From Escherichia coli (GTDB taxonomy: Bacteria > Pseudomonadota > Gammaproteobacteria > Enterobacterales > Enterobacteriaceae), in the NCBI RefSeq assembly GCF_030013205.1, contig NZ_CP122648.1: a DNA stretch of 64,000 nucleotides, one strand, 5' to 3'. A program made the translations under genes and the position numbers. This document shows positions 38,268 through 47,379 of the stretch, one piece after another (the first letter of the stretch is position 1; each line of letters starts with the position of its first letter). The notes beneath the pieces are model-generated. The model was given only the letters and a program-made list of their open reading frames with translations, searched no databases and was not told the DNA's origin.

Positions 38268-38359
38268 TTTATTAACGCGATTGTAAAACTGCGGTTTTTA
38301 CTCGTTTACAACGCGTGCGCTGGACATTACCATCCTCCTCTGCGATTTATCATCGCAAT

Positions 38360-38437
38360 CAAACGACTCGGGGTGCCCTTCTGCGTGAAGGCTGAGAAAT
38401 ACCCGTATCACCTGATCTGGATAATGCCAGCGTAGGG
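38360..38437. repeat. attL: 78-bp copy of thiM TPP-riboswitch sequence (left junction of inserted element)
   Basis: Perfect 78-bp identity to 47250..47327; sequence to its left is native rcnR-thiM intergenic DNA, sequence to its right is element DNA. Confidence 0.75.
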
Positions 38438-38520
38438 GGCCAAAATAGTCTTGAAAATTATGTGGTTGTATCTCTTTTTGACCATAAATCATGCTGTTAA
38501 GGTACAAAAAGGGGTCGTTT

Positions 38521-39828
38521 ATGAGGTCAAGAACTCTCCCATACACATTTCAGCGAAACGGTAATTACTATCTACAAATCCGGCTTTCGGATGGTCGGAT
38601 ATACAAAAAATCACTTTTTACTGACAGTTATCGCGAAGCATCGGCGTTGATGATTGGCCTTACTCCGCACATTCCTTTCGTTAAATCACTCGCTACTCCG
38701 TTGCCGCAATTTAATAAGTTTGTTTCAAACTTGATCGCTTCGTCACGTAACGTAATGATTCCGTTGCCACTCCCTCAGCAATTGAACAATATTTCTAAAG
38801 AAGTTTTGCAGCTTCAACCACCAGCCAAACCGGAAAAGGTGCTAACACTTGCTGATGCGTGGGCTATGTACAAGGAGGAAAGAGGTCGAAATTGGACAAA
38901 ATCGATCTCAATGGCAAATGAGCGTTATATGGAGGTATTGCTTGTTGTCTTGGGAAAAGAAACAGACGTAACGGCAATCACCAAACAAGATATTAAGCGA
39001 GTAATGGAAACTGTCGAAAACTTACCAAAGCGTGTAGTGCAACCGTATAGGTCAATGACTATTCAGCAACTAATCGAATGTGATGATGTGCTGCCAGAGG
39101 ATTTAGTTGGTGCTGAGGCTGTACATAAGCACCTTAAAATCTACAAATCGTTATTCAAAACATTTCTGACTGAAAACAAAGATATTCTATCTAAGTCTCC
39201 GACTGATGGAATAGTAGCGGCACCATCCAAAGCTAGGTTTGGTGCATACAGTGCAGCAGAAATGAAAAAATTTGTAGGATGGGCACTAAAGCAGCCTGAT
39301 GGATGGCAGAAGTGGATCACTTTGTTGTTGGCGTACACAGGAGCCAGAAGAGGTGAGATTGCTAAACTGGAGAAGTCGCAGATCAAATTTGATGAAGATA
39401 GCCAGCGGCACTATCTTCTGATCGCGGAAAGAAGGCTGGGTAAAACTGAGAATGCTACAAGACAGGTAGTGATTCATCCCAAACTGATTGAGTGGGGGTT
39501 TCTGGATTTTGTTAACCGCCAATGGAAAGAGAAAATCTTTTCGGAAGTCTCAGGTCGAAATATGTCAAAGATAGGTAAAGTTCTTTCAGATGTTCGTGAT
39601 CAGCTTGATATTCCTTATCTTGATGATTATGGGCAGCGGCGCTTGGTGCATAGTTTCCGGCATACTATGATTTCTACTTGTTTAGCTGGTTGGGTGAGTA
39701 ATTTGGCGCATCTGCAACAGGTGGTAGGTCATGAGAAAAGCGGTTTAGGGATTACCAGACGCTATTTGCACTCTTTTCCTTTACGTTCAATTTGTTACGT
39801 GATTGATGGTTTGGACTGGTTAAATTGA
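38521..39828 (+). CDS. Tyrosine-type site-specific integrase
   Basis: ORF 38491..39828; RBS AAGGGG before ATG 38521; catalytic-region motifs ARRGEI, HSFRHT, and terminal RRYLHS tyrosine. Confidence 0.85.
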   Translation: MRSRTLPYTFQRNGNYYLQIRLSDGRIYKKSLFTDSYREASALMIGLTPHIPFVKSLATPLPQFNKFVSNLIASSRNVMIPLPLPQQLNNISKEVLQLQPPAKPEKVLTLADAWAMYKEERGRNWTKSISMANERYMEVLLVVLGKETDVTAITKQDIKRVMETVENLPKRVVQPYRSMTIQQLIECDDVLPEDLVGAEAVHKHLKIYKSLFKTFLTENKDILSKSPTDGIVAAPSKARFGAYSAAEMKKFVGWALKQPDGWQKWITLLLAYTGARRGEIAKLEKSQIKFDEDSQRHYLLIAERRLGKTENATRQVVIHPKLIEWGFLDFVNRQWKEKIFSEVSGRNMSKIGKVLSDVRDQLDIPYLDDYGQRRLVHSFRHTMISTCLAGWVSNLAHLQQVVGHEKSGLGITRRYLHSFPLRSICYVIDGLDWLN

Positions 39829-39869
39829 TGTGAGCCTCGTGAGAAAGGGAATAAATAGAGAAAATCAAG

Positions 39870-39897
39870 TTGTTACCTCATTGGCAGGGGATATAAT
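39870..39897 (+). promoter_or_regulatory. Candidate sigma70 promoter for the nuclease gene
   Basis: -35 TTGTTA (39870-39875), 16-bp spacer, perfect -10 TATAAT (39892-39897), about 30 nt upstream of the ATG. Confidence 0.4.
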
Positions 39898-39927
39898 GAC
39901 CATATTGTCATCTTGAGGAACAAAAGT

Positions 39928-41499
39928 ATGGTTGCTCGTTCTAACCTTGTAAATTTAGATGCACTGATTAAGCGTGCTGATTTAGGTTTAAAGATCCAAG
40001 ATAACTCTTCATTTGAAACGCTAAACAGTATTCCTGCAAGAGAATTGAAATCAGGAAGTGGAATTGCTGCGCTTCTGAGAAAACCAGATTTCCAGCGTGA
40101 AACAAATCATTGGGGGCCTGAGCAGGTTGTATCGCTTCTCGAATGCTACATCAATGGTGATTTGATACCTTCCGTTATTCTTTGGCGGTCTTCAACCCAT
40201 CTTTTTGTGATCGATGGTGGTCATCGTTTAAGTGCGTTACGTGCTTGGGTTGAAGATGATTATGGCGACGGTCATATATCCCATCAACTTTTTGGGCATG
40301 ATATTCCTCGTGAACAACGCCGCGCTGCAGATAGAACGAGAAAGCTTGTGAAGGAGAGGGTCGGTAGCTGGGAATATTATCAGAAGTTGCTTGCCGATGA
40401 TGCTTCATTGACCGAGGAACAGCAGAGAAGAATCAGCGTATTAACATCTCGTGGAATCTCAGTCCAATGGGTAGTGGGTGATGTAGATAAGGCAGAAACT
40501 TCATTTTTTAACATCAATATGAAGGGAACTCCTCTTGATGCTATCGAAGAGATGCTTCTAAAAAATCGCAAGAAAAGTATTCCGATAGCAACCCGAGCAA
40601 TTATTCGTGCCGGTAGAGGTCATCGCTATTGGTCGGGGTTTGATCAGAGCATTGCCCAGCAACTTGAAGATAAATCTGCAAAGCTGCATCGTTTGCTGTT
40701 CGAACCTGAAGTTGATCGCCCTATTAAAACTCTTGATCTTCCATTAGGCGGTTCTAGGGGGGTCAGGACAGCGATCCAAGTTTTGAAAGATTTCTTACTG
40801 ATCACTGATTGCAACCAGAATGGTGTTTTGAAAAAAATCGAAGCCTACCCTGATGATGCGTCGGGTGCTGATACGTTAAGAATCCTTTCCAAAGCCACAT
40901 CATTAAGCAATAGAATTACAGGCAATGGCGATGGTAGCTTGGGGCTTCATCCAGCGATTTATTTTTATGGTCCGACTGGAATCCACTCAACGCCAATGTT
41001 TCTAGGAACTGTGCTACTGGTGGCAAAACAACTCTCTAACAATAATGGTCAATTCTTTAAAGACTTCACAACAATCAGATCTAGGCTTGAGAGAATAATG
41101 ATCGAATTTAAGGACTTGATCGCAATGATAGTACAAAAACCAGGTAGTAATGTCCGAGTGGCTCGCTACTGTGATTTTTTAAATGCGGTGATCAAATCAC
41201 TCAAGCAGGGAGAGAATATTGATGAGAGTAAGCTTATCGAGCTGGCCGAATTGGAGGGGAGAATACTCTCTGGAGATTTTAAGAGAACATCAGCAAAAAT
41301 CAGCGATGAACAAAAAAGTAAGGTGTTCATTGACGTGGCTCTGCGCAACGCTTTGAAATGTCCGATTTGCCAAGGTTACCTTGATACTGAAAAGTCAGTT
41401 TCTTATGATCATATCGTACGTGTCCGTGAGGGAGGAGATGGTAATTCTGACAATGTACAGTTGACACACCCTTACTGTAACCAGTCAGTGAAGTGTTAA
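39928..41499 (+). CDS. DUF262/DGQHR (ParB-like) domain + C-terminal HNH endonuclease fusion; candidate defence nuclease
   Basis: N-terminus FQRETNHW ... FVIDGGHRLSALRAW (QR/DGQ(Q/H)R-like ParB-fold motifs); C-terminus CPICQGYLDTEKSVSYDHIVRVREGGDGNSDNVQLTHPYCNQ (HNH His-Me finger). 523 aa from ATG 39928. Confidence 0.7.
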   Translation: MVARSNLVNLDALIKRADLGLKIQDNSSFETLNSIPARELKSGSGIAALLRKPDFQRETNHWGPEQVVSLLECYINGDLIPSVILWRSSTHLFVIDGGHRLSALRAWVEDDYGDGHISHQLFGHDIPREQRRAADRTRKLVKERVGSWEYYQKLLADDASLTEEQQRRISVLTSRGISVQWVVGDVDKAETSFFNINMKGTPLDAIEEMLLKNRKKSIPIATRAIIRAGRGHRYWSGFDQSIAQQLEDKSAKLHRLLFEPEVDRPIKTLDLPLGGSRGVRTAIQVLKDFLLITDCNQNGVLKKIEAYPDDASGADTLRILSKATSLSNRITGNGDGSLGLHPAIYFYGPTGIHSTPMFLGTVLLVAKQLSNNNGQFFKDFTTIRSRLERIMIEFKDLIAMIVQKPGSNVRVARYCDFLNAVIKSLKQGENIDESKLIELAELEGRILSGDFKRTSAKISDEQKSKVFIDVALRNALKCPICQGYLDTEKSVSYDHIVRVREGGDGNSDNVQLTHPYCNQSVKC

Positions 41500-41887
41500 A
41501 ATCACGTTTCACTTTTCGTTGTCATTTGTATCGAACGTTTTTGAGAAAGGGCAGGATTGCGAGCGAGTTACCAGCGTAAACAGATAAATACTGTTTTCGT
41601 AAGCCCACTGTCGCCGCTTTCCGCTCTGCAATTTTTGCTTGTCGGGGGGCTAATTGTGGCTTTGCTTGCCATAACATTAAAAGTCAGTAATATACTGAAA
41701 ATTAATACAATACTTTTCATATATCCCATTGAATATTCAGTTCATTGCCAAATAGCAAGCGGAGCACTCTCTCTTTAACGTTGTAGTAACTTAGTTGAAC
41801 AATTTTATAATATAATTTGTCTAAGTTGGTTGATGTATCAAAGCCTTTTTCTGAAGAATGAATTGGCGTGATTACTCACGCCAGATT

Positions 41888-42235
41888 TTAAATTTCAGAA
41901 CATAGGCTAAGCGTATAGACAGCAGTTTGCCCATCATTGTTAGTCGGTCTCATAACGAAAACAGGCTGACTCCCATTATCAATGTATGTGACTGCAACCC
42001 CTCCATCAGGTGTGGCATACATTTTTGCGATGCTTTTTTGACCTATAAAATCAAGTCTCCAAGTCTTACCACCAAGATGTATTGTCATTTTTTTATCTTG
42101 TATATCAAAAGTTGAATCTACAGAAACTTTCTGACTTCCCGAGTCAATATGACCTTCCTGTATTGCTTTACAGGAAAAGGTTGTGGCGTGGCCCATCACT
42201 GGAATTAACAAAGCGGCAAATACTAGTTTTTTCAT
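41888..42235 (-). CDS. Small secreted protein of unknown function (115 aa)
   Basis: RBS GGGAGA; MKKLVFAALLIPVMGHATTFSC signal peptide; no recognisable family. Confidence 0.5.
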   Translation of the reverse strand: MKKLVFAALLIPVMGHATTFSCKAIQEGHIDSGSQKVSVDSTFDIQDKKMTIHLGGKTWRLDFIGQKSIAKMYATPDGGVAVTYIDNGSQPVFVMRPTNNDGQTAVYTLSLCSEI

Positions 42236-42345
42236 TTGTCTCCCTTGATGTGTCAAATGGATGGTGATGCTAATAATACATGATTGATTCAAAATGTCAC
42301 GATTAGTGCGTGGTTAATTGGTGCGTCAAATTGCATCTTTGTGCC

Positions 42346-42810
42346 ATGCGAAAGAATCTGAGATACCTTTTTGGACAACGAGTAAAAGAGTTCCGTATAG
42401 CTATTGGCTTAAGCCAAGAGGCCTTTGCAGATCGGTGTGGTTTTGCTCGTAGTTATATGAGTCGAATTGAGCGTGGTTGCTCTAATGCATCTCTTGATGC
42501 AATTGAGGTTCTGGCTGACGCTTTGCGTATTGAGCCTTGGCAGTTACTAGCTTCTGATTCAAGGAAAACTGATGATCAGGAGGTACTTGTTCCTTATGCT
42601 GCAGATGGGTCGTGTTTTCATCCAGGATTGGCAAGTACTCGCGATGGTTCGTTTAGAGTAGGGGAAAAATCAGCCCAGAAACGTTTCAGTTCGTTCAATG
42701 ACGCTCTCGAATACCTTCGTGGAATGGAAACCGCGAAGTGGCGTAGGCCTAATGCTAGTGGTAATTGGGGAATTGTATCTGCGGTTAAATGGGATCGACT
42801 GAATCAATAA
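42346..42810 (+). CDS. XRE-family HTH regulator with C-terminal extension
   Basis: LRYLFGQRVKEFRIAIGLSQEAFADRCGFARSYMSRIERG HTH; start could also be the GTG at 42310; divergent from secreted-protein gene. Confidence 0.65.
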   Translation: MRKNLRYLFGQRVKEFRIAIGLSQEAFADRCGFARSYMSRIERGCSNASLDAIEVLADALRIEPWQLLASDSRKTDDQEVLVPYAADGSCFHPGLASTRDGSFRVGEKSAQKRFSSFNDALEYLRGMETAKWRRPNASGNWGIVSAVKWDRLNQ

Positions 42811-42976
42811 GATATCAGTAATTTTCGGGCCACTCCACAAGGCAATAAGTGGCTTAGTGGTGATTATCGAAGGGGAATACAAGCGAGCACCTAGGCACCA
42901 TTGCAAGAACCGCTCAACGCTGAGATCAGCAAGCCCCGATTTCTGCCGACCGTCCCTGTCAAATATCAAGGAGGCA

Positions 42977-43516
42977 TTACGCCTCCTCTTCTTCCTTCTT
43001 AATTCGCTGTACCGTCGAAGGAGCAACATTAAAGATCTCGGCGGTTTTACGCACTGACACGCCATCAGAAAGGGCTTTCTTTATACCTTCTCGATCCACT
43101 GCCTTACCTTTACCACGCTTTCTAGGATTGACGGCTTGCGCTTCTCGTTTACGTTCTAACATCAGTTCACGTTCACACGTTGCCACTGCCGACAACATAG
43201 TAAGCATCATTTTTCCCATCGCGCTTGTAATGTCTGCAATGATCCCTTCTTTGTGAAAGCGAACAATTACACCACGATTATTAAGTTGTTCCACTAAGGC
43301 AAGAATGTCTAAGGTGTTACGCCCTAAACGATCAAGAGAGTGGACGTGTAAGGTGTCGCCTTCTCTCAGATAGGCTAAACACGCTTGTAAGCCTGGGCGG
43401 TTAGTGTCTTTACCAGACAGCTTATCTTCAAAGACTTTGTCGAGAGTTAGTCCTGCAAGCTGGCGATCAGTATTTTGATCTACAGTGCTCACACGCTTAT
43501 AGCCGATATTGCTCAT
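42977..43516 (-). CDS. Small serine recombinase (resolvase/invertase family)
   Basis: MSNIGYKRVSTVDQNTDRQ with catalytic Ser; C-terminal HTH; RBS AAGGGGA. Confidence 0.8.
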   Translation of the reverse strand: MSNIGYKRVSTVDQNTDRQLAGLTLDKVFEDKLSGKDTNRPGLQACLAYLREGDTLHVHSLDRLGRNTLDILALVEQLNNRGVIVRFHKEGIIADITSAMGKMMLTMLSAVATCERELMLERKREAQAVNPRKRGKGKAVDREGIKKALSDGVSVRKTAEIFNVAPSTVQRIKKEEEEA

Positions 43517-43565
43517 AAAATCCCCTTGATGTATCGATTTGGCACCACTCCAATGCAAATGAGTG

Positions 43566-43653
43566 TGTTGTATTCATTTGGTCTGTTTCAAGCCTTATGG
43601 ATACGGAATATTACACGATTTAGCTGTATTCATTTGGTATGCCTAATGGATAC
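43566..43653. promoter_or_regulatory. Two res-like palindromic sites upstream of the serine recombinase
   Basis: tgtattcatttggtctgtttcaagccttatggatacgg and tgtattcatttggtatgcctaatggatacgc; each has imperfect inverted half-sites GTATTCAT / ATGGATAC. Confidence 0.4.
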
Positions 43654-43785
43654 GCAGGGGGATAGATTAAATGGTGTTCTGTTTATACAGGTTTATTTGT
43701 TAGATCAACAAGTTGGCATTTCTAAACAGATGTTTGAACGTTGCCAAATGCCTTGACAACACAAGAAAATGGCTTGCTATGAACG

Positions 43786-44100
43786 CATTACACGAAATAA
43801 GGCTATAAAAACAAAATAAATTTTAAAATTTGCACAAAAACGAGAAAACTCGTTCGACAAATAATAGATTGGTTTTTAATCGACAATTTCTGACAATTTC
43901 TGATGGTGCTCTGTAAACCGCATTACACAAGGCTTTGCGAAAGTGATGTAAAAGTGAAGAAAGTTAACATTGCACTTTGAAGCCATTTTTCATTGGATTT
44001 TTTAGTAGGGAATTACACAGGGAATAGAGAGCATTATTCTATGATTTACACAGGGAATATAGGGGATTATGGCACACACATAGAAAGGCATTACACAGAG
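43786..44100. repeat. Iteron-like direct repeats, family A (TTACACAGGGAAT-type, 5 copies)
   Basis: cattacac(g/a) at 43786 and 43921, aattacacagggaat at 44011, tttacacagggaat at 44046, cattacacagag at 44089. Confidence 0.5.
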
Positions 44101-44163
44101 TGAGTGCTATGTGATGATTGGTAGTAACGGTAGGTCACTGTGAGCTACCCCCCACAGAATTCT

Positions 44164-44340
44164 GTTACCCCTATCAAGTCTAACAGGGGTTTATAAAGAA
44201 TAATAAACCGATGATACCCCTATCAATATTGATACCCCTATTAGCTTTGATATGACTACCCCTATCAAAACTGATACCCGATAAGAATAAGTTAATAAGA
44301 ATAATTAAATAATATTCTTTATATCTATATATATGATCTT
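44164..44340. repeat. Iteron cluster, family B (GATACCCCTATCAA x5) plus AT-rich unwinding-like tract: candidate oriV
   Basis: tacccctat at 44166, 44215, 44233, 44257 and tacccgat at 44275 (spacing 18-49 bp), followed by about 60 bp of nearly pure A/T (44281-44340). Confidence 0.55.
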
Positions 44341-45503
44341 TTTGCCTTCCGGCGTTAGCTTCACTCTCTGGCAAGCAGCCTTACTCCGCTATCTTTGGGC
44401 TTCGTGGCTGGCCCGTTCCGCTCACACCGAAAGCAAAGCGTTACTCTTCTTCGTGTAACTATCGTTGGCGGTAACGCCACACGAAGAAATACTATTGCGC
44501 TGTGCGCAGTAAGAGTAATCACCTAACCAATCACCTGATTGCTTACGTGTTAACTCTCTCTAACTCTTAATTACCCTCCTACATTTAATAACTCTATTAT
44601 TCTCTGTAGTTGTGTAATTACTCGAAGAGAGAGCGGCTAAAGCTCAATTACACTCTGCTTTCCTCGTGTAATTTCACTAAGCCTCAATACAATTTCACTT
44701 CCTACATTCTGTAGTCGTGTAATAGTTTTCGGTGGGGAAAAGCCAGAGGCGACACCGAAAGAAAATTCTGATCTTATTAATCTTATCTATCTTAGTTAAT
44801 CTTCTTACTTACTTTATCTACTTTATTATTAATAATAGCTTTATAAGCTCTCTGTGTAGCTCTCTGACGCAAGAAACAGCATTCAGGAAGGGAATCACCT
44901 TAGAAAAGTGTTCTTTGCGTCATAATGTGTTTTATGAAGGATTCAGAGGTGTTTCATAACACAAGGTATAGAGGATATTTTAGTTAATTAAAAATAAGGG
45001 GGCTAAATGCTTCTCTAACAGCATTAAGCAGGGTAGAGAATGGAAATGCATTGCCTACGTATATATAAACTCACTACAAGGCTTTACAGAGCGTTTTATA
45101 AAGTAACTAATCTAAGAACTCTCTGTTTTATATCTATCATCATCTTTCCATCATCTAACAAATACAAAATAAGCCCCTTAAATAAGCCTCTGGCGAGCTA
45201 AACAGCCATTACATAAGGGAATGTATTTCTTTTATCAAAACTTCGTTAGAACGCGTTTTAGAGCGTTTTATACAATAAGGAAGAATAGGACCGTCCGCAA
45301 GAGCACGAATTGCTAAGAAAGAATGTAAACGCATGAAAAATATCAGATTTTTTATGAAAATATATTGACAAATGTTTCTTTATATGTAATAATAGGTATT
45401 AGAGAGACAGAAAAACATTCTTCTCTAAATAATCAAAATCAATGCACTTTGAAGCCGTCAGGCTTGCAAGGTGTTTTTCTTTTAACTGAATAAGGAGTTT
45501 TTT

Positions 45504-45692
45504 ATGAAATGGTTTACACCGGAACACGTCGTAGAGGCATTTAAAAAAGGTGAGCTAACACGACATCAAGTAGTAATGAATCGTAATATGGCAAGGAGTC
45601 GAGGTTATCCAGAGCGTGAAAAATGTTTCGATGCAGCACTAAAAATTATTGATAAATTAAGAAAAAATGAAAAAGGATCTGAAACAGAGTAA
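45504..45692 (+). CDS. Hypothetical small protein (62 aa)
   Basis: Strong RBS AAGGAG 7 nt upstream of ATG; basic small protein, no family recognised. Confidence 0.45.
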   Translation: MKWFTPEHVVEAFKKGELTRHQVVMNRNMARSRGYPEREKCFDAALKIIDKLRKNEKGSETE

Positions 45693-45711
45693 AGAAGAGA
45701 AGGAGAAAACT

Positions 45712-45882
45712 ATGAGCGAAACTACAGAAAAGAAAAGACAACCACGCACTTGCTTTCATATTCCTGATGAAGTATTTCAGGTGTTGTTTAAAGAAGCCAG
45801 AAGTAAACGTATCACTGTTACAGATTACATTCTTGATATGTTGAAAAGAGAGGCTGAAACACTCTCAAATAAAAGCAAGTGA
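45712..45882 (+). CDS. Ribbon-helix-helix (CopG/Arc-like) DNA-binding protein
   Basis: RBS AGGAG; PRTCFHIPDEVFQVLFKEARSKRITVTDYILDMLKRE fits beta-alpha-alpha RHH pattern. Confidence 0.5.
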   Translation: MSETTEKKRQPRTCFHIPDEVFQVLFKEARSKRITVTDYILDMLKREAETLSNKSK

Positions 45883-45936
45883 TTTTTATCACCATAGTAG
45901 CGCCGTAGAGCGTGATTACATCAAGGAGCTTTTTTA

Positions 45937-46599
45937 ATGATTAAACATACAAAACCTTTCTTAGGAATAGATTATGACTTACTAGCAATCACTTCCCTAG
46001 TGATTAACGGCAAAACAAAAGAAGTAAAACTACATCATAAGATCATTTATTCTTATTTGTTAAGTTTATCTGGCACATATCAAAAGGTAACACCATCTTT
46101 GAAAGGTATTGGTGAGCGGTTAGGAGTAGGTACAGATCAGACGGTACGCCGTCATATCAAAGATCTTGTTTCTTTTGGATGGTTGAAGATTGAGGAAAGG
46201 GCAGGTAGCACAAATGCTTATATTGTCCTTCCTTATGAACAAGAAGCCCAGACACAACAAGAAGCTACCGTTAAAGCTGTTCAGGAACAGCTTCCCCCTA
46301 CGGAAGATAATAAAGAGTTTTCTTTTGATGTTCTTGATGATTGGGATGCGCCTTTACCTTGGGAAATGGAAGAAACGCCATCTGATGAAAAGGTAGCTAA
46401 TGATAATGAGGAGGATGTGTTAGAGAATTTTGCCTCTCTTATCATCCAGGAGAAACACACAAGAACAGGAGGGGCATCATTTATAGAATTTGCAACATCG
46501 TTAGCCTGTAAGCACAGGATAAAGCTACCAAATGGTATTGAGGCATATTTTGCTAAGAAACATCCCAAAGTATATGAAGACTTTGATATTCCATTTTAA
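45937..46599 (+). CDS. Winged-helix protein, candidate replication initiator
   Basis: RBS AAGGAG; wHTH-like SLKGIGERLGVGTDQTVRRHIKDLVSFGWLKIEE; acidic C-terminal half; sits next to iteron region. Confidence 0.5.
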   Translation: MIKHTKPFLGIDYDLLAITSLVINGKTKEVKLHHKIIYSYLLSLSGTYQKVTPSLKGIGERLGVGTDQTVRRHIKDLVSFGWLKIEERAGSTNAYIVLPYEQEAQTQQEATVKAVQEQLPPTEDNKEFSFDVLDDWDAPLPWEMEETPSDEKVANDNEEDVLENFASLIIQEKHTRTGGASFIEFATSLACKHRIKLPNGIEAYFAKKHPKVYEDFDIPF

Positions 46600-46794
46600 T
46601 AAGGAGGGTTATGATTCAATATTTAGTAAAAAATAAAGTAGAATTCATCTATTCCACTCTCTAAAAATCTATCTGTGTAATATAAAATGAAAACATTATG
46701 GTATTAGCTATGTATTGGTTATTGTTCTTTCTGGCCTTAGAAACATATGCAAGTAAGTCTGGAAAACGAAAGTAATATATTGATGATTTGTTTG

Positions 46795-47052
46795 TTATAA
46801 CTTCGTGGTGTCAAGTCCAGCAGTTTTGAGTCGCTCGGTAAGATTTCTCATTTTGCTGAACTCTGTACCAAAGCTGGCTTTAAGTCCTACACCTTCGCAA
46901 AACTCTTTTGCCGTGACGTTTTTCAGATGGTCAACATATTTGGTCATCTGGAGGTGCATTTCCATCGTTTGGCTATTTCGTGATGCGCTGCTAATGGCTT
47001 GCTTAATGTTCTCGTAGATCTGGGTTCTGTCATTGTTTATCCCACCTATCAA
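46795..47052 (-). CDS. Hypothetical small protein (85 aa) at element right end
   Basis: Minus-strand ORF adjacent to attR; function unknown (could be an excision/regulatory factor). Confidence 0.35.
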   Translation of the reverse strand: MIGGINNDRTQIYENIKQAISSASRNSQTMEMHLQMTKYVDHLKNVTAKEFCEGVGLKASFGTEFSKMRNLTERLKTAGLDTTKL

Positions 47053-47245
47053 ATTTAGAAAAATAATATTAATTAGCTAATTAATATAATCAATGGTTTT
47101 CACCATCTGAATGATAGCCGTTAATTGTTTCTTTTTCATTCCTTCTATGGGGTACAAAATGGGGTACACAGAGAAGAAGCAATTAATGGAGGCGAGCTTG
47201 CATCTGCAAGCCACTTCCCCTAAGCTGGCACAAAATATAGAGATT

Positions 47246-47379
47246 CAACCAAACGACTCGGGGTGCCCTTCTGCGTGAAGGCTGAGAAATACCCGTATCA
47301 CCTGATCTGGATAATGCCAGCGTAGGGAAGTCACGGACCACCAGGTCATTGCTTCTTCACGTTATGGCAGGAGCAAACT
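47246..47379 (+). promoter_or_regulatory. TPP (thi-box) riboswitch controlling thiMD
   Basis: Contains the canonical thiM aptamer sequence CAAACGACTCGGGGTGCCCTTCTGCGTGAAGGCTGAGAAATACCCGTATCACCTGATCTGGATAATGCCAGCGTAGGGAAGTC and expression platform up to the SD (ggcaggag). Confidence 0.85.
47250..47327. repeat. attR: 78-bp direct repeat (native riboswitch copy adjoining thiM)
   Basis: Identical to 38360..38437; downstream sequence continues as native thiM leader. Confidence 0.75.

What the first reader, a model, noticed from the sequence alone, without database searches (positions are those of the whole stretch)
44341..44530. GC-rich structured segment embedded in the AT-rich origin region
Within otherwise about 75% AT DNA there is a 190-bp GC-richer block with nested inverted repeats (ttcttcgtgt / acacgaagaa; gttactctt / aagagtaac) and a ggcg-GTAA-cgcc hairpin with a GNRA-type loop. 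It contains no ORF. It could be a regulatory antisense RNA (copy-number control), a single-strand initiation site or an oriT-like nick region.
Basis: seen in the sequence. Interest (0 to 1): 0.45.

Follow-up and report, generated by a model that had tools for sequence, protein, structure and literature searches.

The report
Folded DNA module beside a replication origin
The GC-rich block is real: it is the constant, hairpin-forming part of the replication origin of a small phage-like island in the E. coli chromosome, and most likely helps start DNA synthesis once the neighbouring AT-rich DNA has been opened.

Summary
Window 44341-44530 is 52% GC next to a 60-bp stretch of 12% GC, has no ORF, and holds the nested inverted repeats described; one was misquoted (AAGAGTAAT, not AAGAGTAAC).

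It lies in an 8.9-kb island inserted in the thiM leader. This island is a cut-down member of a 9-13 kb phage-satellite-like family found in about 15% of complete E. coli genomes and in Enterobacter and Klebsiella.

Left of the block are four or five dyad repeats and an AT-rich tract. At least four repeat types each go with one N-terminal type of a lambda-O/HTH_36-like Rep protein encoded about 1.4 kb downstream. That marks a Rep/iteron origin. The block is a constant module that combines with any repeat/Rep type.

Its 3' half folds into a T-shaped three-way junction (44449-44486). The same topology recurs in ten sequence variants from eight or nine lineages with different sequences: 98% standard pairs against 31-40% in slid controls. 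The 5' half is conserved but not significantly structured.

I found no Rfam match, no conserved promoter or terminator, and no similarity to plasmids or phages.

Best reading (about 0.45): a single-strand initiation-type origin signal. Rivals are a structured RNA and a duplex or cruciform architectural site. It is a new variant of a known kind, of moderate interest.

The parts
38359..47345 (+). Integrated island in the thiM leader, bounded by two TPP riboswitch copies. It carries int, GmrSD, an HTH gene, a serine recombinase, about 2 kb without genes, two small ORFs, a Rep-like gene and an HTH-like gene.
   Evidence: Rfam hits; RefSeq annotation of an identical copy; PHROG and NCBIfam scans.
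43917..44100 (+). Four ATTACACA(G/A)G repeats in the conserved left part of the intergenic region. Inverted copies (TGTGTAAT) lie at 44611-44725. Probably operator-type sites; the binding protein is unknown.
   Evidence: the repeat finder families D1, D4, D7 and pairs I1, I11, I17; conserved in the relatives.
44160..44282 (+). Iteron array: TGATACCCCTATCAA-type dyad repeats at 44163, 44212, 44230 and 44254, plus a partial copy. Inferred binding sites of the Rep-like protein.
   Evidence: the repeat finder D2/D3. Repeat type co-varies with the Rep N-terminus in 29 loci and across genera.
44283..44340 (.). AT-rich tract (about 12% GC), the presumed unwinding element. It ends in a conserved GATC (44335-44338).
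   Evidence: Composition. An AT-rich tract and a GATC recur at or near this boundary in the lineages read.
44341..44438 (+). 5' half of the finding. GC-rich and 97% conserved within E. coli, but without a significant fold. It holds CGTTCCGCTCA (44414-44424), kept in nearly all module-A-type lineages; shorter or altered forms occur in the Klebsiella-type copies (CCGCTCA), in L068 and in module B.
   Evidence: Alignments; fold z +1.3 to -1.6; conservation.
44440..44519 (+). 3' half of the finding. Outer stem GTTACTCTT / AAGAGTAAT (44440-48 / 44511-19) encloses the T-junction and the GC mini-hairpin. This outer stem is not kept in every lineage.
   Evidence: The stem is absent in the Klebsiella lineage L061.
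44449..44486 (+). T-shaped perfect three-way junction. Stem CTTCGTGT / ACACGAAG (44449-56 / 44479-86); arm 1 AAC-TATC-GTT (44457-66); arm 2 GGCG-GTAA-CGCC (44467-78). This is the best-supported functional core.
   Evidence: Same topology in 10 variants from 8-9 lineages: 181 of 184 cells form standard pairs, 31-40% when the partner is slid. It is the minimum-energy fold in 10 of 10 variants with DNA parameters (z -1.7 to -5.6) and in 4 of 10 with RNA parameters. Three compensatory pairs on a homology-only alignment.
44496..44508 (+). Mini-hairpin TGCGC-TGT-GCGCA. GCGCTGTGCGC recurs, exactly or with one or two changes, in module A, module B, L004 and the Enterobacter and Klebsiella lineages. 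L057 and L068 lack it; L051/L058 have a different small GC hairpin at that place.
44520..44762 (+). Rest of the constant module (about 420 bp in all, 44335-44762). It has a conserved pyrimidine-rich tail and two hairpins CTACA/TGTAG (44579-83 / 44605-09 and 44702-06 / 44710-14). The first encloses AATAAC/ATTATT (44587-92 / 44596-601). It ends with hairpin TTTTCGGTG/CACCGAAA (44726-34 / 44753-60).
   Evidence: Four-lineage alignment. By my reading of that alignment, the outer pairs change together: CTACG/CGTAG in L004 and CTACT/AGTAG in L047.
45365..45503 (+). Promoter of the rep operon (TTGACA-17-AATAAT with TG), followed by a leader of about 90 nt that ends in a terminator-like hairpin just before the first ORF.
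   Evidence: Promoter scan; sequence; by eye, the hairpin is kept with different sequence in L047, L051 and L061.
45504..45882 (+). Two small ORFs (62 aa; 56 aa). The second is conserved across genera and served as the family marker here. I judged it ribbon-helix-helix-like by eye; this was not tested.
45937..46599 (+). Rep-like initiator, 220 aa. The N-terminal part varies with repeat type; the C-terminal part is conserved.
   Evidence: PHROG replication-initiator families, including 'O-like' and DnaD-like, E 1e-10 to 1e-7; Pfam HTH_36 E 1.9e-7; co-variation with the repeats.
42977..43660 (-). Serine recombinase gene (42977-43516) with two dyads GTATTCAT..ATGGATAC upstream (43563-43653). Probably a multimer-resolution system; not the partner of the block.
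   Evidence: PHROG DNA invertase E 5e-56; sequence. Enterobacter and Klebsiella relatives have a tyrosine recombinase there but keep the block.

Best explanation
The block is the constant, initiator-independent part of the vegetative replication origin of a small integrative phage-satellite-like element.

Shown:
- A Rep protein with a lambda-O/HTH_36-like DNA-binding part is encoded in cis.
- Its specificity type matches the type of the 4-6 dyad repeats.
- These repeats abut a tract of about 60 bp with 88% AT, and the block starts at the end of that tract.
- The block's 3' half has a fold, a T-shaped three-way junction plus a GC mini-hairpin, that is kept by compensatory changes.

Inferred:
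- Rep binds the repeats and opens the AT-rich tract, and a helicase is loaded there.
- As the adjoining DNA becomes single-stranded, the T-junction and hairpins snap back and stay free of SSB.
- This folded DNA then serves as a single-strand initiation (ssi) signal, recognised by a factor that does not depend on Rep type: host primase, the PriA primosome, RNA polymerase, or a helper-phage protein. That factor lays down the first primer or assembles a primosome.
- The GC-rich, unstructured 5' half would bound the bubble and carry a sequence-specific contact (CGTTCCGCTCA).
For: 1. Origin context. At least four repeat types each go with one Rep N-terminal type in 29 E. coli-type loci. The match also holds for Enterobacter and Klebsiella loci. 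Rep hits replication-initiator families.

2. Position. The block begins within 5 nt of the AT-rich tract in E. coli module-A copies; L004, L047 and L051 have one extra small hairpin in between. The order repeats, AT tract, block, rep is the same in all loci read.

3. Independence from Rep type. The same block follows repeat types A, B, C, D and E. An alternative module B, which also starts with a three-way junction, combines with the same repeat types.

4. Conserved fold. The T-junction keeps one topology in ten variants, with 98.4% standard pairs against 31-40% in slid controls. Each variant folds better than shuffles as DNA. Examples of compensatory change: TCG/CGA vs GCG/CGC, AGGC/GCCT vs AGCC/GGCT, TAAC/GTTA vs AAAC/GTTT.

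5. No conserved promoter or terminator brackets the block (for the window; relatives read by eye).

6. With DNA energy parameters the T-shape is the minimum-energy fold in 10 of 10 variants, with RNA parameters in 4 of 10. This is a weak pointer only.

7. Precedent. Iteron replicons with an ssi-like palindrome next to the repeats are described for pHW126-type plasmids (bioRxiv 10.1101/2022.12.05.519187, read). RSF1010 ssiA/ssiB and the R1 G-site are precedents from my own knowledge.
Against: - No replication or priming assay exists for this family; everything beyond anatomy is inference.
- There is no sequence similarity to any plasmid or phage. The PAS hexamer AAGCGG, recalled from memory, is absent, and there is no consensus DnaA box.
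- The functional strand could not be assigned. G.T-compatible mismatches occur on both strands.
- The conserved module is about 420 bp with further co-varying hairpins. That is longer than classical ssi signals and more like a large RNA.
- Natural copies lack parts of it: L068 has no T-junction, L057 has no GCGCTGTGCGC hairpin, and L037 has no module-B junction. The structure may therefore be dispensable, or those copies may be decaying.
Confidence: 0.45

Rival explanations
1. The block is part of a structured non-coding RNA, either about 200 nt or the whole 420-nt module. It would be transcribed across the origin-proximal region and act as a regulator, pre-primer or origin activator.
For: Compensatory changes keep several hairpins over about 420 nt. 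Unpaired motifs are conserved (CGTTCCGCTCA and the tail). Some loops are GNRA-like. The composition is strongly strand-skewed, with the + strand 38-46% purine over 44300-44700. Whole-block RNA folds give z -2.2 and -3.3.
Against: No Rfam family matches even at E<=10. No sigma-70 promoter or intrinsic terminator lies near either end on either strand (for the window; relatives read by eye). With RNA parameters the T-shape is the optimum in only 4 of 10 variants. Wobble pairs show no strand asymmetry. The block does not overlap rep or its leader.
Confidence: 0.2
2. The block acts as duplex DNA or as an extruded cruciform. It would be an architectural part of the origin: a GC clamp that limits melting, a landing site for the conserved C-terminal part of Rep or for a host or helper protein, or a cruciform that takes up superhelical stress when the AT tract opens.
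For: The 5' half is conserved in sequence but unstructured. Short invariant motifs (CGTTCCGCTCA, GCGCTGTGCGC) look like protein sites. GC-rich segments next to AT-rich tracts occur in RK2 and RSF1010 origins (own knowledge). Both strands can form the T-shape equally well. Rep C-terminal parts are conserved across specificity types.
Against: The sequences of the junction arms are not conserved, only their pairing. That argues against sequence-specific duplex recognition of that part. Small palindromes nested inside a larger inverted repeat with no spacing are typical of folded strands.
Confidence: 0.2
3. The block is a packaging (cos/pac) signal that a helper-phage terminase recognises to package the element.
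For: The family encodes a lambda-E-type capsid protein, and I saw no terminase among its called genes, so it may need a helper's packaging signal. The constant module comes in alternative forms that could track helpers.
Against: The island has no lambda cosN or P2/P4 cos sequence and no similarity to 50,697 phage records. Pairing, not sequence, is what is conserved. The block sits fixed against the AT-rich tract of the origin.
Confidence: 0.05
4. The block is an oriT-like nick region that lets a conjugative plasmid mobilise the island.
For: Inverted repeats and a small, possibly ribbon-helix-helix, protein are common at oriT sites.
Against: Neither the island nor its full-length relatives encode a relaxase. 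No plasmid in 72,556 records has similar sequence. The relatives carry capsid and tail-like genes instead.
Confidence: 0.03

Closest known systems
RSF1010/R1162 (IncQ) oriV with ssiA and ssiB (own knowledge)
   Same: Repeats bound by a plasmid Rep, an adjacent AT-rich tract, then hairpin-forming single-strand initiation signals that act once the origin is melted.
   Different: The IncQ signals are simple hairpins of about 40 nt, read by the plasmid's own primase RepB'. Here there is no primase gene and no sequence similarity, the fold is a T-shaped three-way junction, and only one orientation of the module occurs.
pHW126-type plasmids (pIGMS31, pIGRK): repeats + conserved region + ssi-like palindrome (bioRxiv 10.1101/2022.12.05.519187)
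   Same: An HTH-type Rep, four repeats, a conserved region and a non-essential ssi-like palindrome lie side by side. Loss of the ssi changes copy number and multimer state rather than abolishing replication, which would fit the natural deletion variants seen here.
   Different: These are small plasmids rather than integrative phage-like elements, with no detectable sequence relation. Their replication mode is said to be unusual.
Phage lambda ori (own knowledge)
   Same: The repeats have dyad symmetry and are bound by an O-type initiator. They are followed by an AT-rich tract and then a palindrome. Rep here hits the 'replication initiation O-like' PHROG family.
   Different: Lambda ori lies inside gene O and its right-hand palindrome is a simple 28-bp one. 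Here the origin is 1.7 kb upstream of rep, in a gene-free region, and no P-type helicase loader is encoded.
Plasmid R1 G-site, and phage G4 and phiX174 complementary-strand origins (own knowledge)
   Same: Folded single-stranded DNA near or downstream of an origin directs primase or the PriA primosome to start synthesis.
   Different: No sequence resemblance could be shown. Those signals are sets of adjacent hairpins, not a closed three-way junction.
Single-strand origins (ssoA and others) of rolling-circle plasmids, and the M13 minus-strand origin (own knowledge)
   Same: Non-coding, orientation-specific, highly structured regions of 150-300 nt that keep pairing rather than sequence and recruit host RNA polymerase for a primer.
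   Different: They serve replicons with an HUH nickase and a full single-stranded intermediate. The Rep here is an HTH protein with repeats, that is, a theta-type setting.
Parvovirus (AAV) inverted terminal repeat (own knowledge)
   Same: A T-shaped hairpin: one stem with two small palindromic arms and almost no unpaired junction bases, used in DNA replication.
   Different: It is terminal on a linear single-stranded genome and primes by self-folding. Here the junction is internal in a double-stranded, integrative element. The resemblance is one of shape only.

Membership tests
Rep/iteron (theta-type) replication origin | Tandem repeats that match the specificity of a cognate initiator | tested here: met
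   4-5 copies in the window. Four repeat types each pair with one Rep N-terminal type in 29 loci; the match also holds in Enterobacter and Klebsiella.
Rep/iteron (theta-type) replication origin | AT-rich unwinding tract next to the repeats | tested here: met
   44281-44340 is 11.7% GC; an AT-rich tract follows the repeats in the lineages read.
Rep/iteron (theta-type) replication origin | Initiator gene in cis with similarity to known initiators | tested here: met
   PHROG replication-initiator families, E 1e-10 to 1e-7; Pfam HTH_36, E 1.9e-7.
Rep/iteron (theta-type) replication origin | DnaA boxes (present in many, not all, such origins) | tested here: not met
   No exact TTWTNCACA in 43560-45500; only four one-mismatch hits.
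Rep/iteron (theta-type) replication origin | Rep-dependent autonomous replication | not testable with these tools
   Needs a mini-replicon assay.
Single-strand initiation (ssi) / primosome assembly signals | Stable fold of the single strand, kept in evolution | tested here: met
   T-junction z -1.7 to -5.6 as DNA in 10 variants; 98.4% standard pairs against 31-40% in slid controls.
Single-strand initiation (ssi) / primosome assembly signals | Activity confined to one strand | tested here: inconclusive
   The orientation relative to the origin is fixed, but wobble-compatible mismatches occur on both strands.
Single-strand initiation (ssi) / primosome assembly signals | Sequence hallmarks of a known class: PAS hexamer AAGCGG, DnaA box in a hairpin, or homology to G4 oric | tested here: not met
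   No AAGCGG or CCGCTT in 44000-44900 and no DnaA box; no similarity to plasmids or phages. The hallmarks themselves were recalled from memory.
Single-strand initiation (ssi) / primosome assembly signals | Priming on SSB-coated single strands, or rescue of an ori-defective M13 | not testable with these tools
   Experimental.
Antisense or other regulatory RNA of replicons (RNAI/CopA type), or any Rfam family | Match to a curated RNA family | tested here: not met
   No hit at gathering score. At E<=10 the only hit is a chance one in the repeats (E 7.8). ARAGORN finds nothing.
Antisense or other regulatory RNA of replicons (RNAI/CopA type), or any Rfam family | Own promoter and terminator that delimit a transcript | tested here: not met
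   The scan finds none near the block apart from a weak 5-bp hairpin (the TGCGC-TGT-GCGCA hairpin itself) without a proper T-run. The flanks in other lineages, read by eye, have no shared -35/-10.
Antisense or other regulatory RNA of replicons (RNAI/CopA type), or any Rfam family | Overlap with, or complementarity to, the rep mRNA or its leader | tested here: not met
   The block ends 835 bp before the rep-operon promoter (45365) and 1.4 kb before rep.
Antisense or other regulatory RNA of replicons (RNAI/CopA type), or any Rfam family | Detectable transcript | not testable with these tools
   No expression data at hand; a literature search for sRNAs in the O157 copy found nothing.
oriT | Cognate relaxase, or similarity to the oriT of a helper plasmid | tested here: not met
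   No relaxase in the island or its relatives; no plasmid match.
cos site of lambda- or P2-type helpers | cosN-like sequence | tested here: not met
   GGGCGGCGACCT with <=2 mismatches and the P2 cos with <=3 mismatches are absent from the island.

The most novel reading that the evidence does not exclude
The roughly 420-nt constant module (44335-44762), with its T-shaped junction, would be a previously undescribed class of structured nucleic-acid element. It would be specific to a widespread but uncharacterised family of enterobacterial satellite-like islands. It could be a large non-coding RNA made at the origin, or a new type of folded-DNA signal that lets interchangeable Rep/repeat cassettes plug into one common host or helper replication apparatus.
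Probability: 0.3. Interest if true: 0.65.

Novelty: new variant of a known kind. Interest (0 to 1): 0.45.

Why it matters
About 15% of complete E. coli genomes carry the gene-free region (799 of 5426) and 8% carry this block (437 of 5426). I found no description of the element family or of its origin in the searched literature.

The region shows an unusually clear modular origin. Specificity cassettes (repeats plus the Rep N-terminus) are shuffled against a constant folded module. If the module is a priming or primosome signal, it would show how small satellites with only an O-like initiator recruit the rest of the replication machinery. It would also supply a compact, portable origin part.

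The islands carry varying defence genes next to int (GmrSD here, a TIR protein in a relative). How they replicate therefore bears on how such defence cargo spreads.

Tried and rejected
- **Rfam and tRNA.** Rfam at gathering score and at E<=10 gave nothing usable. ARAGORN found no tRNA or tmRNA.
- **BLAST.** The block against plasmids and phages at E<=10 gave only chance hits of 19-35 nt. The whole 1.9-kb region gave no phage hit, and its two 'plasmid' hits are partial: one covers only the right-hand end and the other is a 4.9-Mb record, apparently a chromosome.
- **cos, DnaA box, PAS hexamer, Fis.** All absent. An IHF-like AATCACCTGATTG at 44529 is not kept in the variants.
- **A resemblance to lambda cosB R3** (GCGTT..CTTCTTCGT..TAAC), noticed from memory, was dropped. 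Homologues replace that sequence while keeping the pairing.
- **A long-range 'closing helix' around the 5' half** (TTTGC...GCAAAG) looked compensated by eye. It was rejected as evidence because the 5' half folds no better than shuffles and the helix is not predicted consistently.
- **The outer stem** GTTAC/GTAAC is not universal.
- **Strand assignment from G.T against A.C mismatches** was inconclusive.
- **Alignment tools.** MAFFT-based RNAalifold recovers only the core of the junction stem because the arms do not align by sequence. Feeding an N-padded hand alignment through MAFFT failed, so pair counts for the arms come from my own structure-anchored table. That table leans towards the structure; the slid controls and the per-sequence shuffles are the safeguards.
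- **Pattern scans.** The genome-collection scan showed the exact E. coli form only in Escherichia, plus one MAG labelled Bacillota, which is probably contamination. One viral scan gave nothing.
- **Literature.** The O157 Sakai prophage paper (PMC2669165) only lists Sp1 as degraded and inactive; that the O157 copies are Sp1 is my unverified guess. The E. coli defence-island paper does not mention this site. PIME elements are a different family.
Full report
**Where the finding sits.** The window is E. coli chromosome: it holds CyaR, OrzO-P and the thiMD region. Positions 38359-47345 are an 8.9-kb island inserted in the thiM leader, and a TPP riboswitch copy lies at each end. The RefSeq annotation of an identical copy lists, in order: a tyrosine integrase, a GmrSD nuclease, a hypothetical gene, an HTH gene, a serine recombinase on the minus strand, about 2 kb without any gene (43560-45500), two small ORFs, an 'HTH domain' protein of 220 aa, and an HTH-like gene. 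The finding (44341-44530) lies in the middle of the gene-free stretch.

**Checking the observation.** The block is 51.6% GC. The 60 bp before it are 11.7% GC and the 100 bp after it are 34%. The third pair is 44440-48 with 44511-19, where the sequence is AAGAGTAAT rather than AAGAGTAAC. A further hairpin, TGCGC-TGT-GCGCA, lies at 44496-44508. All six frames have stops, and related copies differ by 1-nt indels. The block folds better than shuffled sequence, with z -2.2 on the + strand and -3.3 on the - strand.

**The element family.** The 1.9-kb gene-free stretch has relatives in 799 of 5426 complete E. coli genomes, always on chromosomes apart from two places. The block itself occurs in 437 genomes. 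No phage record matches, and the only two 'plasmid' records match partially.

Full-length relatives are 9-13 kb and lie next to tRNA-Thr, tRNA-Ser, tRNA-Gly or thiM. Besides the genes seen here they carry a lambda-E-type major capsid protein, a tape-measure-like protein and a tail-fibre or baseplate-like protein. Homologues of the 56-aa small protein led to the same architecture in Enterobacter and Klebsiella. The island in the window is thus a cut-down member of a phage-satellite-like family. I found no description of this family. A 2009 survey of O157 Sakai prophages lists one small element (Sp1) as degraded and inactive (PMC2669165); that the O157 copies are Sp1 is my unverified guess. The recently described PIME elements are different.

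**It is an origin.** Left of the block are four or five copies of the dyad repeat TGATACCCCTATCAA (44160-44282), followed by the AT-rich tract. Other copies of the family have quite different repeats at the same place:
- CACAGAAWWCTGTTA
- GGTAGGTCAYWGTGAGCTAGGGG
- GTAACGAWWCGTTACA
- CCTAGGAAATGAGTTCC
- GGCACTWTACCTGAGGGG
- ACATCAAAWTGATGTA
- GGTGTCAATTTGGCAC

. In 29 loci, four repeat types each go with one N-terminal type of the 220-aa protein, without exception. The match also holds between genera:
- The Enterobacter copy with the window's repeat type has a Rep 44% identical to the window's over its whole length, with a matching N-terminus.
- Copies with ATAACA..TGTTAT repeats share the type-B N-terminus.
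- Copies with ACATCAAA..GATGTA repeats share another Rep.

That protein hits PHROG replication-initiator families, including 'O-like' and DnaD-like (E 1e-10 to 1e-7), and Pfam HTH_36. Its C-terminal part is conserved across types. Repeats that track an initiator's DNA-binding part, followed by an AT-rich tract, define a Rep/iteron origin. No consensus DnaA box is present.

**The block is a constant module.** The same block follows at least five repeat types. Roughly half of the E. coli elements carry a different right-hand module, 'B', which combines with the same repeat types. Whatever reads the block is therefore not the specificity-determining part of Rep. Within 17 distinct E. coli copies the block is 97% identical pairwise, against 71% for the AT-rich tract and 85% for the next 80 bp. 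A four-lineage alignment shows that conservation in fact runs from about 44335 to about 44760, some 420 bp, of which the finding is the left 190 bp.

**Structure.** Diverged copies came from an E. coli variant (L004), Enterobacter (L047, L051), Klebsiella-type loci (L061, L064-L066) and metagenomes (L055-L058). In all of them the segment homologous to 44449-44486 can form the same T-shaped, perfect three-way junction. It has a stem of 7-10 bp and two arms of 3-5 bp, with no unpaired junction bases, and the sequences differ:

| Variant | Stem 5' | Arm 1 | Arm 2 | Stem 3' |
|---|---|---|---|---|
| window | CTTCGTGT | AAC-TATC-GTT | GGCG-GTAA-CGCC | ACACGAAG |
| L004 | CTCGTGC | TAAC-TTC-GTTA | CTGAC-GAGA-GTCAG | GCACGA |
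| L055 | TTGTGCAA | TGGC-TTT-GCCA | CCG-TTTCA-CGG | TTGCACAA |
| L051 | TTTGTGCC | AGGC-TTTG-GCCT | TGAC-GTGA-GTCA | GGCACAAA |
| L061 | TTGTGCA | AGCC-CTT-GGCT | GCG-TGAAA-CGC | TGCACAA |

Over ten variants, 181 of 184 cells are standard pairs, against 31-40% when the 3' partner is slid by 1-3 nt. On an alignment made by sequence homology alone, the junction stem has three pairs with changes on both sides. Each variant folds better than its shuffles.

With DNA parameters the T-shape is the optimum in 10 of 10 variants. With RNA parameters it is the optimum in 4 of 10. This is a weak pointer, because it depends on multiloop parameters.

Module B starts with an analogous junction directly after its AT-rich tract: GGGATA [CCC-GTTA-GGG] [AGTC-nnn-GACT] TATCCC. 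The mini-hairpin GCGC-TGT-GCGC recurs, exactly or with small changes, in most lineages and in module B.

By contrast, the 5' half of the finding (44341-44438) shows no significant fold in any lineage. It is conserved as sequence within Escherichia and is largely replaced in other genera, except for CGTTCCGCTCA.

Further right, the hairpins CTACA/TGTAG also change in a compensated way by my reading of the alignment: CTACG/CGTAG in L004 and CTACT/AGTAG in L047.

**What it is not.**
- No Rfam family matches even at E<=10, and there is no tRNA or tmRNA.
- No sigma-70 promoter or intrinsic terminator brackets the block (for the window). The flanks in other lineages, read by eye, share no promoter.
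- The rep-operon promoter lies 835 bp further right and points away from the block.
- There is no relaxase gene and no plasmid similarity, so an oriT is unlikely.
- No lambda or P2 cos sequence is present.
- The neighbouring recombinase is a serine enzyme in E. coli and a small tyrosine enzyme in Enterobacter and Klebsiella, yet the block is the same. It is therefore not that enzyme's site.

**Most likely mechanism.** The shown steps are the origin context, the block's position at the edge of the unwinding tract, its independence from Rep type, and a fold kept by compensation. The rest is inferred. When Rep opens the AT tract and a helicase moves in, the adjoining strand folds into the T-junction and mini-hairpin. 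This folded DNA then acts as a single-strand initiation signal for primase, the PriA primosome, RNA polymerase or a helper-phage factor, and the GC-rich 5' half bounds the bubble.

Precedents exist. pHW126-type plasmids have repeats, a conserved region and a non-essential ssi-like palindrome. RSF1010 ssiA/ssiB, the R1 G-site and pAMbeta1 ssiA are further precedents from my own knowledge. I put this reading at about 0.45.

**Arguments against it.** There is no sequence hallmark of any known ssi class, and the strand cannot be assigned. The module is long for an ssi. Natural copies lack parts of it: L068, L057 and L037.

**Rivals.** A structured RNA gets about 0.2: it is favoured by the extent of co-varying hairpins and the strand-skewed composition, and disfavoured by the missing transcription signals. 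A duplex or cruciform architectural role also gets about 0.2, and it is the better account of the unstructured but conserved 5' half. Packaging and oriT readings are unlikely.

**Verdict.** The finding is real and functional-looking. The block is best filed as a new variant of a known kind: an origin-adjacent folded-strand signal, with an unusual T-junction shape, in an uncharacterised but common element family. Interest is moderate. It would rise if the 420-nt module proves to be a transcribed RNA or a new kind of primosome-recruiting structure.

Noticed in passing
window 38359-38454 and 47249-47345: The island sits inside the thiM leader and the TPP riboswitch is present twice. One copy lies directly upstream of the island's integrase gene (38521-39828) and the other upstream of thiM. 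The integrase may therefore sit behind a thiamine-responsive leader, while the element restores one for thiM.
   Followed up: partly
window 43563-43653: Two dyads GTATTCAT-(N)-ATGGATAC with different spacing lie just upstream of the serine recombinase gene (42977-43516, minus strand). They look like a res-type multimer-resolution site. Enterobacter and Klebsiella relatives carry a small tyrosine recombinase at the same place.
   Followed up: partly
window 43917-44100 and 44611-44725: Four ATTACACA(G/A)G repeats lie to the left of the origin core, and inverted TGTGTAAT copies lie to its right. Module B has TGTGCAAT instead. These are possibly operator or handcuffing sites for one of the small conserved proteins.
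   Followed up: no
window 45365-45503: A strong promoter (TTGACA-17-AATAAT with TG) is followed by a leader of about 90 nt ending in a terminator-like hairpin and T-run just before the first ORF. By eye, the hairpin keeps its pairing with different sequence in other genera (GAAGCC/GGCTT, GAAACC/GGTTT, TTAGCC/GGCTGA). It is either an attenuator or a small RNA.
   Followed up: partly
window 39928-41499; L004 1360-3975: The cargo next to the integrase differs between copies at the same site: a GmrSD-type nuclease here and a TIR-domain protein in L004. This fits a defence-gene hotspot.
   Followed up: no
L061-L066, L068 (about 1450-2230); window 44335-44338: Klebsiella and Enterobacter relatives encode a Dam-like methyltransferase (PF05869) just left of the repeats. 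A GATC recurs at or near the border between the AT-rich tract and the block in the lineages read. This hints at methylation control of the origin.
   Followed up: no
L064 about 2490-2720; L066 about 2430-2720: Two tandem copies of the unit 'T-junction + GCGCTGTGCGC hairpin' are present, one Klebsiella-like and one L004-like. They are separated by an (AATTAATC)n microsatellite of variable length.
   Followed up: partly
L068 about 2560-2680; L057; L037: There are natural deletion variants. L068 lacks the T-junction, the mini-hairpin and the tail; L057 lacks the GCGCTGTGCGC hairpin; L037 lacks the module-B junction. Either the structures are dispensable or these copies are decaying.
   Followed up: partly
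window 44446, 44479, 44510: The window's copy differs from the majority E. coli form by three single-base insertions (C, A, T). The C and the A each add base pairs, to the outer stem (6 to 9 bp) and to the junction stem respectively; the T lies in the spacer and some other copies have it too.
   Followed up: partly
L002 1-1971 (NZ_AP027745.1): In one genome the satellite-like element lies next to a second integrative element that carries trbJ/trbL at the same tRNA-Ser. This may be one of the recently described PIME elements.
   Followed up: no
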